Program-made: the position numbers and the translations under genes
Notes under the pieces: generated by a model
Database searches by the model: none
The model's input: the letters and a program-made list of their open reading frames with translations, nothing else
Told to the model about the DNA's origin: nothing
Part shown: positions 12,180-64,000 of the stretch, piece after piece
Position numbering within the stretch: the stretch's first letter is position 1
Layout of the letters: each line of letters opens with the position of its first letter
Source of the DNA: Eledone cirrhosa
Taxonomy: Eukaryota
Direction of reading: 5' to 3'
NCBI GenBank assembly: GCA_964016885.1
Contig: OZ024744.1
Location: forward strand, 99,324,001 to 99,388,000
Length of the DNA: 64,000 bases

Positions 12180-12303
12180 TCCACTGATGAGTTTATAAGA
12201 GCCCGCTTGTGTATAAAACTATGGATTATATACAAGTTTCTACATAACCTGGAAATTATTTATCCCAATTTGTAGAAATCTTATAACGAAACGGCCGTCT
12301 GGA
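12180..12303 (+). ncRNA. Type I hammerhead ribozyme, intact core, large branched stem II
   Basis: tcca-CTGATGA-g(t)ttataaga...tcttataac-GAAA-cggccg-TC-tgga; palindromic stem III. Confidence 0.8.
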
Positions 12304-12620
12304 AGGAAAGAGATATTTATTTAATAATGTCTCATATAAAATAATACAACCAGCTATCCACGAAATACTGATTAGTTAGCACCCCAAACACTAAATTGGG
12401 AAAATACTTAGGTATATCCTAATGTTTGTTGAGTGAGCTGGAGTTGGTCGGAGTATCGCTTAAGGCTTTCTCTGTTTATGTATTGTATATATATATATAT
12501 AGTAATAATAATAAATTTGAAAATTATGGATATGTGTATGCATTTATTTAATTTCATTTACTTCTGTATTTTATTTACTTTATTCTTAACTCTGAAGCCG
12601 AGAATCATTTGGTTTCCTAG

Positions 12621-12900
12621 TTAGAATTTTAGTCTACGACTTCAGTTATACCATTTACGTGGTTTTGTGTTTGCGTGCAATTGTTCTCCACACTCCACAT
12701 ATGACGTATTATCTTCGTTTTTTCCGTTCATTGCCAGAGAACGTCTCTATGAACCACATAATAGAATATTAGTCTACGACCTCTTTTATACCCTAAACGT
12801 GGTTTTGTCTTTGCGTGTAATTGTTTTTCACCGCTCCAAATAATGACGTATTATATTCGTTTTTTCCCGTTCTTTGCCAGGAAAAGTTTCCACGAACCAA
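12621..12900. repeat. ~140-bp direct duplication (2 copies) in a probable Penelope-like remnant
   Basis: tagaa..tagtctacgac...acgtggttttgt..ttgcgtg..attgtt...atgacgtattat at 12622 and 12762. Confidence 0.8.
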
Positions 12901-12977
12901 AGTATCATCTTCCTGTCTTCCTCCGGTTGCAACGTTTTTTGAAATATTCACTTCTGCGTTCACAGATTGACTTTGTT

Positions 12978-13028
12978 AGTTTCAGAAGATCCCGTTAAGA
13001 GTGAAAGCAGCGATTATTTGCTTAAACT
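12978..13028 (+). ncRNA. Degenerate hammerhead ribozyme
   Basis: agttt-CAGAAGA-tcccgttaagagt-GAAA-gca..tgc-TT-aaact, followed by aataaa and (TA)n; one core mismatch (U4A). Confidence 0.55.
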
Positions 13029-13147
13029 TTAATCTGTTATTTTAATAAATATATATATATATATATATATATATATATATATATTTATATATATATATAT
13101 TTATGTATCCAGTCCAGGGAGATCAGAATGTCTTTTAGAGGATTTAA

Positions 13148-13364
13148 CCCTTTAGCTTCTAAACTGCCCATATTCGGTCAAAATTCTCTCACCTCTTTCT
13201 GTTCAAACTGGCTGTAACTGACCAATCATACTTATGTTAAGGTATTGTTCTCAAAATAATATCAAAATCTCATAGATTTGATACTATGTGAGATAATTAT
13301 GTGAGGTAAAGCATTTACTGTGAAAATATAATAGTATTACAAGAGTAATGTAAATGCTAAAGGG
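13148..13364. mobile_element. piggyBac-type MITE
   Basis: TTAA|ccctttagc ... gctaaaggg|TTAA; a related inverted partial copy lies at ~55165-55341. Confidence 0.75.
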
Positions 13365-13413
13365 TTAAACCCAGAAATTTAAAAGATAATCTGTCAATTT
13401 GATGGCATTATTA

Positions 13414-14425
13414 TTTGGCAGTATCGGTAAAGTATCAGACATCATACTTTGACGCATAGAGTTACAGCCCTTGCCATTCTGAGTTCAAATCCCGCCAAGG
13501 TTAACTTTGCCTTTCATCCTTACGGGGGTCGATAAAATAAAGTACCAGTAATGCACTGGGTAATTGCTGGCCTTGTGCAAAAAAAAAATAGAAACAATTA
13601 TTACACCAAGGTGGTTGATTGGCAGTATCGGTAGAACATCGGACCACGTACTTTGTAGCATAGAGTTATGGCCCTTTACACTCTGAGTTAAAATCCCACT
13701 ATGGTTAGCTTCGCCTTTCATCCTTATAGGATTGATGATAGAATAAAGTACCAGTAACCCACTGGAGTCGATTTAATTGATTTTGCCCTCCCTCAAATTG
13801 TTGGCCTTGTGCCTAAATCAGAAACTATTATTAGGGCAGAGGATTGGCAGTATCAGTAGAGCATCGTTCCACAGGCTTTGTGGCATACAGTTATGGCCCT
13901 TTACACTCTGAGTTCAAATCCCCCTATGGTTAGCTTGGATCTCCTCCCCCAAATTGTTGGCCTTGAGCCTAAATAAGATATCATTATTTATGATAAAGGG
14001 GTGCTTGATTGACAATATTGGTAGAAAATTGGGCGGTGGATTGGTAGAATCGGTAGAGCGTCGGACACCCTGCTTTGCAGCATAGAGTTACGTCCTTTTA
14101 CGGTTTGAATTCAAATCCCGCTGAGGTTAACTTTGCCTTTCATCCTTACAGGGTTGATAAAATAAAGTACCAGTAATGTACTGGGATAATTGCTGGCCTT
14201 GTGCCAAAAGTAGGGTAGAGAATCGGACCACATGCTTTGCAGCATTTAGTTACAACCCCTTACATTCTGAGGGCTGTAGAGCGTCGGACAACATTATTTG
14301 CAGCATATATAATTAGGGCCTATTACACTCTGAGTTCAAATCCCACAATGTTTAACTTTGCCTTTCATCTTTACAGGGTCAATAAAATAAAGTACCAGTA
14401 ATGCACTGGGGTCGATTTAATTGAA
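13414..14425 (+). mobile_element. Head-to-tail cluster of ~5-6 family-A tRNA SINEs
   Basis: Repeated ttggcagtatcggta...gagttcaaatccc...gcctttcatcctt modules. Confidence 0.85.
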
Positions 14426-14430
14426 ACCCC

Positions 14431-61902: not shown

Positions 61903-62182
61903 TACATATATATATATATATATATATATATATATATATATATGTTATAGAATGCCGTTAGCTTCTTGCTAAAACAATCTCTATACCTCTCATTTATATA
62001 TATATATATACATATATATATATATATATATATATATATACATACACATATATATATATGTGTGTATATACACACCCACACACATACATATATATATGCT
62101 CTCTTGCTGCATTAAGTGTGGCCGTAACTCGAGTACGGGTATAAATTTATGGTACCCATTTACAAGTGTTAAATATAATAAT

Positions 62183-62290
62183 AATTGTTTCTACTTTTTG
62201 GCACAAGGCCACCAATTACCCAGTGCATTACTGGTACTTTATTTTATCGAGCCCGTAAGGATGAAAGGCAAAGTCAACCTCAGCGGGATA
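62183..62290 (-). mobile_element. Family-A SINE 3' half
   Basis: gtttctact..ggcacaaggcc..ctggtactttattttatcga..aaggatgaaaggcaaag. Confidence 0.8.
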
Positions 62291-62482
62291 TATAATAATA
62301 ATGAAATTATTGTGTACTATAACTCATCAAAGGTGCATGTATAGTACATAGAATAATGTACAAATGTGTTGTATTCAGGCAAATAACTTTGTGTCTACTC
62401 TGGGATTTTTACATAACCTTATCTATTGAGTACGCTGAGATGCAACCGGTACTATCAAGGAAACCTTATCCAAGTACATTCT

Positions 62483-62538
62483 TTCTCTGTTAGTAGGCTG
62501 ACAGAAGTAGCTACCTCTGTCAGCCTACTAACAGAGAA
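62483..62538. repeat. Perfect 23-bp inverted repeat with a 10-nt loop
   Basis: ttctctgttagtaggctgacaga-agtagctacc-tctgtcagcctactaacagagaa. Confidence 0.9.
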
Positions 62539-62662
62539 CAAAGGACAAACACGGACAGAGATATGAACTCTCCTTTCAAAATATATATGTAAAAATGAAT
62601 TTTTCTTCCACTTTTTATTATTATTTGTATAAATATGCAACTTTACCATATTATGCATATCC

Positions 62663-62700
62663 GCAGTTGACAATGGATATAATGCTGAAACCGGTACCAT
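62663..62700 (+). ncRNA. Minimal hammerhead-like motif with U3-A8 core
   Basis: cag-TTGACAA-tggatataatgct-GAAA-ccgg-TA-ccat; stems I and II decayed. Confidence 0.5.
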
Positions 62701-62839
62701 TATTAAATGTGGAAATATCCTCTTTATAAATAAATAAATGTTTTGATATTACACTGAAAGAATCTCTTCAGCATTTTCTACTGAAAAATCTTTTTCCTTT
62801 CTACTATTTGTTTTTATATATTTCAACTCGTGTGTTACT

Positions 62840-63092
62840 TTATATATATATATATATATATATATATATATATATATATATATATATATATATATATATA
62901 TATATATATATGTATATATATATATATATATATATATGTATATATGTATATATATATATATATATATATATATATATATATATATATATATATATATATA
63001 TATATATATATATATACATATATATATGTATATATGTATATATATATATATATATATATATATATATATATATATATATATATATATATATA
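62840..63092. repeat. (TA)n microsatellite
   Basis: Direct inspection. Confidence 0.95.
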
Positions 63093-64000
63093 GGAACAAG
63101 TAAGACCCCGACGGCTGAGCTCAAGCCGTTTCGACGGCTAATTCTGGACTGAATGAAAATTTATTCTGGTATTTAAATAGCCGAGCTTATCAAGGGGGTA
63201 ATTCCATATATGGTCAAAGAGATAATCACCAGGATTGGTCACATCACAAGTTAGTAGTAAATCTGTGATGGCAAATTAGTGGGGGAAGGGGTAGCTAAAC
63301 CTGCCGGTAGGAGAAAAAGGGAGAGGGGATGGAGTAGACCCATTCATGCGTTGGTAGTGCCGGCTACAGCTGGGCATGAGGTCAAAGAGGATACTGGGGG
63401 AGGAAGTCGAAACGGTAAGTAGAACAATGAAGGGTAAAACTATAAAAAGTACTGAGAATGAAAAAAAAAAAATAAAAAAAAAAATAAAAAAAAATGAGCA
63501 AAGTCTGGTTACTAAGACTTAAGTCTCTCGCTATTGCTAGGCTAAAGAAATACATAAATAAATAAATAAACAAACAAATAAATGAATAAAAGAATAGATA
63601 AATAAATAAAAAAAATATAATAAATTATTAAAAAATAAATAATAATAATAATAATAAATAGACTAGGTGGGACGGAAATAAAGGGACCCTTATAAGAGGT
63701 AAAAGTGCGTGTATCGTACGGTGACGGGTCAACAAAAGGGGGGCCAAAATACTAAAGAGACTACCACGAAATAATAAAGGTTTCTATCCCAATCTCTTTG
63801 ACCATATATGGAATTACCCCTTGATAAGCTCGGCTATTTAAATACCAGAATAAATTTTCATTCAGTCCAGAATTAGCCGTCGAAACGGCTTGAGCTCAGC
63901 CGTCGGAGTTTTACTTGTTCCTATTACCCACTCTACTACCCTAAGTATTGAGTACTTTGGTGCGTTATGGTCCACCTGGTTCGTTACCACATTTACTTCG
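63091..64000. mobile_element. Penelope-like remnant with ~130-bp inverted terminal repeats, each carrying a U3-A8 hammerhead
   Basis: 63091-63222 is the reverse complement of 63793-63923; cccc-TTGATAA-gctcggcta...tagccgtc-GAAA-cggct(tgagctc)agccg-TC-gg(g/a)gt. Confidence 0.8.

What the first reader, a model, noticed from the sequence alone, without database searches (positions are those of the whole stretch)
12180..63923. Unusually dense, diverse set of hammerhead ribozymes in (TA)n-associated Penelope-like remnants
Seen in sequence: type-I hammerhead architecture (stem I - YUGANRA - stem II - GAAA - short, often palindromic stem III - UH - stem I') at 12180(+), 12978(+), 35847(-), 36160(-)/36356(+), 42116(+), 42336(-), 59309(-), 62663(+) and 63105(-)/63817(+). 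Weaker traces lie at ~40720(-), ~59845(+) and ~62735(-). Flanks and stems differ, so these are many distinct families. Several are followed by AATAAA and a (TA)n tract, and several sit in inverted repeats. Established: minimal hammerheads with palindromic stem III occur in the pseudo-LTRs of Penelope-like elements and are thought to cleave as dimers. Inference: a large population of non-autonomous ribozyme-bearing retroelements targeting TA microsatellites; no PLE RT or GIY-YIG ORF is present in this window.
Basis: partly seen in the sequence, partly recalled or inferred. Interest (0 to 1): 0.8.

Follow-up and report, generated by a model that had tools for sequence, protein, structure and literature searches.

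The report
Variant hammerheads in Penelope retrotransposon ends
The eleven main motifs are real hammerhead-ribozyme folds at the ends of truncated Penelope-like jumping genes that sit in TA repeats, a known arrangement, but this genome is estimated to hold 0.3-0.5 million of them and three very successful families have swapped one normally fixed core letter (U4), which makes them a likely natural test of whether the element needs its ribozyme to cut.

Summary
Observation largely right, framing partly wrong. All 11 main sites are type I hammerhead folds of 9 repeat families (143 to 2,243 first-look candidates each); none of the 3 weak traces is a hammerhead. Four families (B, C, D, G) are linked elsewhere in the genome to Hydra-clade Penelope RT-GIY-YIG genes, so these are 5'-truncated ends of autonomous elements, not shown to be a non-autonomous class. 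Hydra elements, their hammerheads and their (TA)n targeting were described in 2021. The window is not dense for its genome: 80 sampled 10-kb stretches gave 139 hits against 11 in shuffles, about one per 6 kb, or 0.3-0.5 million genome-wide, more than any count I found in print. The new point: among 22 families seen at three or more loci, the only core position fixed as a variant is U4 (A, C or G, one family each), kept while stems covary. That suggests the rest of the catalytic core is still selected. Cleavage is untested. Verdict: new variant of a known kind.

The parts
12180..12303 (+). Family A hammerhead: canonical core (C3 at 12184), about 97-nt stem II, palindromic stem III, predicted cut after 12299; in a truncated element about 12080-12487 ending at (TA)n; no ORF link seen
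12963..13036 (+). Family B hammerhead: A at core position 4 (C3 at 12983), fixed in the family; stem III closes in cis; predicted cut after 13023; 3' end of a Hydra-clade element (about 12520-13052), then (TA)n
35846..35883 (-). Family E minimal hammerhead: G at position 4 (C3 at 35879); this copy has lost G12; inside an old inverted pair 35743-36040
36152..36210 (-). Family C hammerhead, canonical core (C3 at 36203), short-ended arm of the inverted pair 36095-36465
36349..36409 (+). Family C hammerhead, canonical core (C3 at 36356), arm with the long tail to about 36540, then (TA)n; family linked to a Hydra-clade ORF (L361)
42116..42159 (+). Family F hammerhead, U3-A8 core (42123), weak stem II; this copy has lost U16.1; inverted partial arm at 42033-42097
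42334..42382 (-). Family G hammerhead: C at position 4 (C3 at 42377), kept across subfamilies; palindromic stem III; family linked to a Hydra-clade ORF (L197, L359)
59302..59433 (-). Family H hammerhead, canonical core (C3 at 59425), long stem II, palindromic stem III in the family; old family, this copy decayed
59585..59924 (-). 3' piece of a Neptune-like Penelope element: last 52 codons of the GIY-YIG domain (59769-59924) and part of the 3' UTR; its own hammerhead lies further 3' in other copies and is missing here. Explains the '59845' trace
62657..62718 (+). Family I hammerhead-like motif, U3-A8 core (62667), palindromic stem III, stem I only one pair then a 10-nt bulge; this copy has a broken stem II
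63105..63198 (-). Family D hammerhead, U3-A8 core (63193), stem III closes in cis; short-ended arm of a truncated Hydra-clade copy 63090-63790, next to (TA)n
63816..63909 (+). Family D hammerhead, U3-A8 core (63821), inverted arm with the 80-nt tail that ends at the window edge, (TA)n directly beyond

Best explanation
The motifs are type I hammerhead folds in the 3' ends of 5'-truncated Penelope-like retrotransposons inserted at (TA)n tracts, four families being linked to Hydra-clade RT-endonuclease genes, and in the RNA of the source elements they are predicted to self-cleave slowly, likely as dimers or with help from the element's protein, the U4-variant families likely included. Steps: (1) shown: a source element is pseudo-LTR, ORF (telomerase-like RT, C-terminal GIY-YIG), pseudo-LTR, with the hammerhead near the 3' end. 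(2) inferred from a related element studied in vitro: the protein nicks AT-rich DNA and starts reverse transcription at one of two internal sites of the tandem RNA; shown here as two 3' end classes per family, both abutting (TA)n, and inverted pairs that mostly have one short and one long end. (3) shown: most copies are short 3' pieces, so each insertion leaves a hammerhead; repeated bursts in dozens of families gave about one motif per 6 kb. (4) inferred: selection acts on source elements only; it keeps stems and 10 of the 11 core positions scored, tolerates U3-A8 and any base at position 4. (5) inferred: the cut trims tandem or read-through RNA at some step in vivo. The genomic fragments themselves are mostly inert.
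For: Excess over shuffles: 6 vs 0.4 in the window; 139 vs 11.4 in 800 kb. With stem III unconstrained, 82 hits vs 0.3 per shuffle, and 26 of 29 flank types self-complementary. Covariation: family C group, 61 double-change cells, 0 of 500 shuffles as high; family G group, 4 cells, 0 of 500. ORF links: B, endonuclease end 919-1068 bp upstream in 15 rows and ORF start 143 bp downstream in one place; C and D full pseudo-LTR/ORF/pseudo-LTR units; G two loci. Model of the family D protein (pLDDT 90) has telomerase RT as top fold match and the Hydra diagnostics. Two end classes and one-tailed inverted pairs, 32 of 42. Of 22 families at >=3 loci, 19 have an intact core and 3 a fixed change, all at position 4. 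In 13,376 contigs laid on family B, 17 sites vary at 10-90% in the 216 nt before the motif and none in the last 72 nt.
Against: No cleavage or expression data. In a mutational scan of another hammerhead all single changes in the CUGA turn had low activity (PMC9901934, passages). For the one Penelope protein studied in vitro, hammerhead mutants did not affect insertion and no RNA-seq reads ended at the cut site (PMC11167929). Eight of nine Xenopus retrozyme dimers did not cleave (bioRxiv 10.64898/2026.07.22.740005). Conservation of the last 72 nt of B could reflect protein binding rather than catalysis. No ORF link was seen for A, E, F, I.
Confidence: 0.6

Rival explanations
1. Same elements, but the hammerhead fold serves as a protein-binding or priming structure and catalysis is dispensable; the U4 families are non-cutting look-alikes that spread anyway.
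For: Hammerhead mutants inserted normally in vitro. Families with U4 changes are among the most abundant (B about 8 copies per 800 kb). U4C is reported to cut much worse in vitro (PMC3088659). Family I has almost no stem I and an alternative hairpin that would hide its core.
Against: The catalytic G8 (or A8 with U3) and G12 and all other scored core positions are unchanged in all 22 families; loss of catalysis would be expected to free them too.
Confidence: 0.27
2. The window's motifs are mainly non-autonomous elements (retrozymes or SINE-like), copied by Penelope proteins in trans.
For: No ORF link for A, E, F, I. True tandem arrays of 310, 516 and 615 bp with hammerheads exist elsewhere in the genome.
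Against: B, C, D, G connect to ORFs; 5' ends are ragged and 3' ends fixed, as for truncated copies; no window copy is a head-to-tail array. The loci held were only 3 kb and chosen for likeness to short copies.
Confidence: 0.1
3. The motifs are chance matches in AT-rich, repeat-rich DNA.
For: Rfam finds none; single-copy folding z-scores are weak for several; the three weak traces were indeed false.
Against: Shuffle controls, palindrome bias, covariation and fixed position near element 3' ends.
Confidence: 0.02

Closest known systems
Hydra-clade Penelope-like elements and their hammerheads (Craig et al. 2021, PMC8557442; sections 3 and 11, passages, supplement parts 1, 2, 52 read)
   Same: C-terminal endonuclease, DKT and RW(K/R) motifs, CxCX5C linker, no CCHH, (TA)n targets, hammerhead near the 3' end, inverted truncated copies with a tail on one end; U-U at the base of stem II; one octopus family (Hydra-1_Obim) is listed.
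   Different: Every core in their File S2 begins CUGA; none has U3-A8 or a non-U at position 4. They found few families outside cnidarians; here several families reach thousands to tens of thousands of copies. Tails here are about 80-105 nt, against 30-40 nt described.
Minimal hammerheads of metazoan Penelope-like elements (Cervera and de la Pena 2014, PMC4209133; parts 1-2 of 4 read)
   Same: Type I, short stem I, palindromic stem III, extra base after A9, U3-A8 variant, inverted pairs, many dispersed truncated copies, many families per genome.
   Different: Counts there are 2,000-9,000 per genome; here an estimated 0.3-0.5 million. Several families here have long stems II (55-100 nt) or a stem III closing in cis. 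U4 variants are not mentioned in the text I read; supplementary figures not seen.
PAc, Poseidon element of Anolis (Frangieh et al. 2024, PMC11167929; parts 1-2 of 4 read)
   Same: Two RT start sites that make the tail; AT-rich targets; both strands cut.
   Different: Different clade; canonical core; its hammerhead cuts only with protein and is not needed for insertion in vitro.
Non-LTR retrozymes of animals (PMC7229834, passages and section 15; bioRxiv 10.64898/2026.07.22.740005, parts 1-3 of 5)
   Same: Type I hammerheads in very many copies (126,247 in axolotl); derived from Penelope ends.
   Different: Retrozymes are head-to-tail arrays without an ORF; the window's copies are single or inverted, and four families have ORFs.
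U4C hammerhead variant of a viroid (cited in Perreault et al. 2011, PMC3088659, passages)
   Same: Natural change at position 4.
   Different: There a low-activity variant that still allows infection; here A, C and G each fixed in a retrotransposon family.

Membership tests
Type I hammerhead ribozyme | Three stems around a junction, open at stem I | tested here: met
   All 9 families; covariation in C and G groups; family I marginal (stem I one pair then a bulge)
Type I hammerhead ribozyme | Core CUGANGA / GAAA / UH, or U3-A8 | tested here: met
   A, C, H canonical; D, F, I U3-A8
Type I hammerhead ribozyme | U at position 4 (families B, E, G) | tested here: not met
   B: 60 of 73 copies CAGAAGA, 4 with U4; G: 42 of 44 with C4; E: 18 of 36 CGGAAGA, 2 CUGAAGA
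Type I hammerhead ribozyme | Site-specific self-cleavage | not testable with these tools
   Needs a bench assay
Rfam hammerhead families | Match at gathering score or E<=10 | tested here: not met
   No hammerhead family among 0 and 105 matches
Minimal hammerheads of Penelope elements | Short self-complementary stem III | tested here: met
   A, C, E, F, G, H, I; genome sample 26 of 29 flank types. B and D close stem III in cis
Minimal hammerheads of Penelope elements | Located in both pseudo-LTRs around an RT-EN ORF | tested here: met
   C (L361), D (L031, L033); each side seen separately for B and G; not seen for A, E, F, I
Hydra-clade Penelope-like elements | Telomerase-like RT with C-terminal GIY-YIG | tested here: met
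   Top fold match TERT; YRDDG and YIG motifs. Pfam and PDB sequence searches gave nothing for this protein
Hydra-clade Penelope-like elements | DKT and RWK motifs | tested here: met
   DKT in D, B, G; RWR in D and C; degenerate in single decayed copies
Hydra-clade Penelope-like elements | CxCX5C linker, no CCHH, CxxC and CxH around the E and N | tested here: met
   D, B, C, G proteins
Hydra-clade Penelope-like elements | Insertion into (TA)n | tested here: met
   3' ends abut (TA)n at fixed distances, e.g. B 58 of 58, G 41 of 41, D 44 of 49, C 43 of 45 within 350 nt
Hydra-clade Penelope-like elements | Placement in the Hydra clade on an RT tree with reference elements | not tested
   Reference proteins were visible only as paper supplement text; assignment rests on motifs
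Non-LTR retrozymes (non-autonomous) | Head-to-tail arrays without ORF | tested here: not met
   Window copies are single or inverted; four families have ORFs. Met by other families at L301, L336, L352 as far as tandem layout goes

The most novel reading that the evidence does not exclude
This genome carries the densest hammerhead load known (about one per 6 kb), and within it a relaxed core, C3-(A/C/G)4-G5-A6-N7-G8-A9, evolved at least three times in successful Penelope lineages and still cuts, likely with help from the element's protein. Standard CUGANGA searches miss this class, and the fact that only U4 is free shows that catalysis is selected in vivo although it is dispensable for insertion in vitro.
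Probability: 0.4. Interest if true: 0.62.

Novelty: new variant of a known kind. Interest (0 to 1): 0.42.

Why it matters
What the hammerhead does for Penelope elements is an open question: it is nearly universal in them, cuts poorly, and was dispensable in the one in vitro system. Dozens of families in one genome give a natural mutational scan of the motif under transposition selection. If the U4 families cut, the accepted core consensus is too narrow and searches undercount these ribozymes; if they do not, they are direct evidence that the element spreads without cleavage. Either result is informative, and the test is cheap. The sheer load also means many host transcripts likely contain such motifs.

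Tried and rejected
Rfam at both thresholds: no hammerhead. Pfam on the family D protein, phmmer and profile search of PDB sequences: nothing useful; the assignment came from the fold search and motifs. I first read D as Nematis; the motifs fit Hydra. I first read H as a plain hairpin and I as lacking a core; the family alignments showed real cores in other registers. The three weak traces were rejected. Single-copy folding energies do not separate the motifs from shuffles for B, E, F, G, as expected for weak or dimeric folds. No RNA holder listed for family B, so expression is untested; laid contigs show presence only; holders coded as organisms B and C also carry pieces of families B and G with no other letter listed at position 4, at low depth, and the kind of those runs is not on record, so I draw nothing from them. 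Names for the nearest proteins: none on record. The host is not identified; the repeat landscape reminds me of octopods (recalled, not tested). The random sample stayed at 800 kb, which limits the family census. Papers not held and so not seen: Lunse et al. 2017 on dimeric Penelope hammerheads and Arkhipova et al. 2017 on Terminons; either may describe U4 variants. Searches that found no report of U4A/U4G hammerheads or of a cephalopod count.
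Full report
Setting. The window is G000:C28:99324001-99388000 of a 3.0-Gb animal genome. 58% of it is tandem repeat, against 32% in sampled stretches. The host was not identified.

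Noticed in passing
L301:1-3668, 3850-9333; L336:5969-8047; L352:8733-9402; L285:2955-4226: Near-perfect head-to-tail arrays with one hammerhead per unit (310-311 bp up to 12 units, in two inverted blocks; 615 bp; 516 bp): candidate non-LTR retrozymes or whole short non-autonomous Penelope derivatives, very young (99-100% identical units).
   Followed up: partly
window 62637-62718 (+): Family I can form two exclusive folds in its majority sequence: a hammerhead with a one-pair stem I, or a longer hairpin that holds the core in its loop. Possible conformational switch or a dying ribozyme; about 1,900 candidates.
   Followed up: partly
window 37094-40760 (-): Near-complete RTE-type LINE (AP endonuclease, RT, PHD-like finger) with stops; the 650 nt upstream of its first frame are a repeated segment (374 candidates) that may be its 5' UTR and was not checked for an HDV-like ribozyme beyond the blank Rfam scan.
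   Followed up: partly
window 60600-61900 (+): Mariner/Tc1-like transposase pieces (60724-61092, 61093-61779) between TA tracts; label from recalled motifs, no Pfam hit.
   Followed up: no
window 18455-33075 and 7924-9493: A 15-kb array of a 48-bp unit with higher-order repeats; the unit resembles a segment of a dispersed repeat seen at 34840, 41000 and 42780.
   Followed up: no
window 45195-54800: About 9.5 kb of a degenerate pentamer satellite with extreme strand skew (GC skew 0.9).
   Followed up: no
window 13420-14400, 41707-41764 (-), 60140-60400, 62180-62290: Several copies of short dispersed repeats with tRNA-like boxes (tRNA model 27.7 bits, below threshold): likely SINEs.
   Followed up: no
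L040 and L039 (singleton hits); L325/L329; L311/L314: Further well-formed hammerheads with A or C at position 4 in families not in the window, including a U3-A8 family in which position 4 varies.
   Followed up: partly
window 43188-43387: A 200-base assembly gap (N).
   Followed up: no
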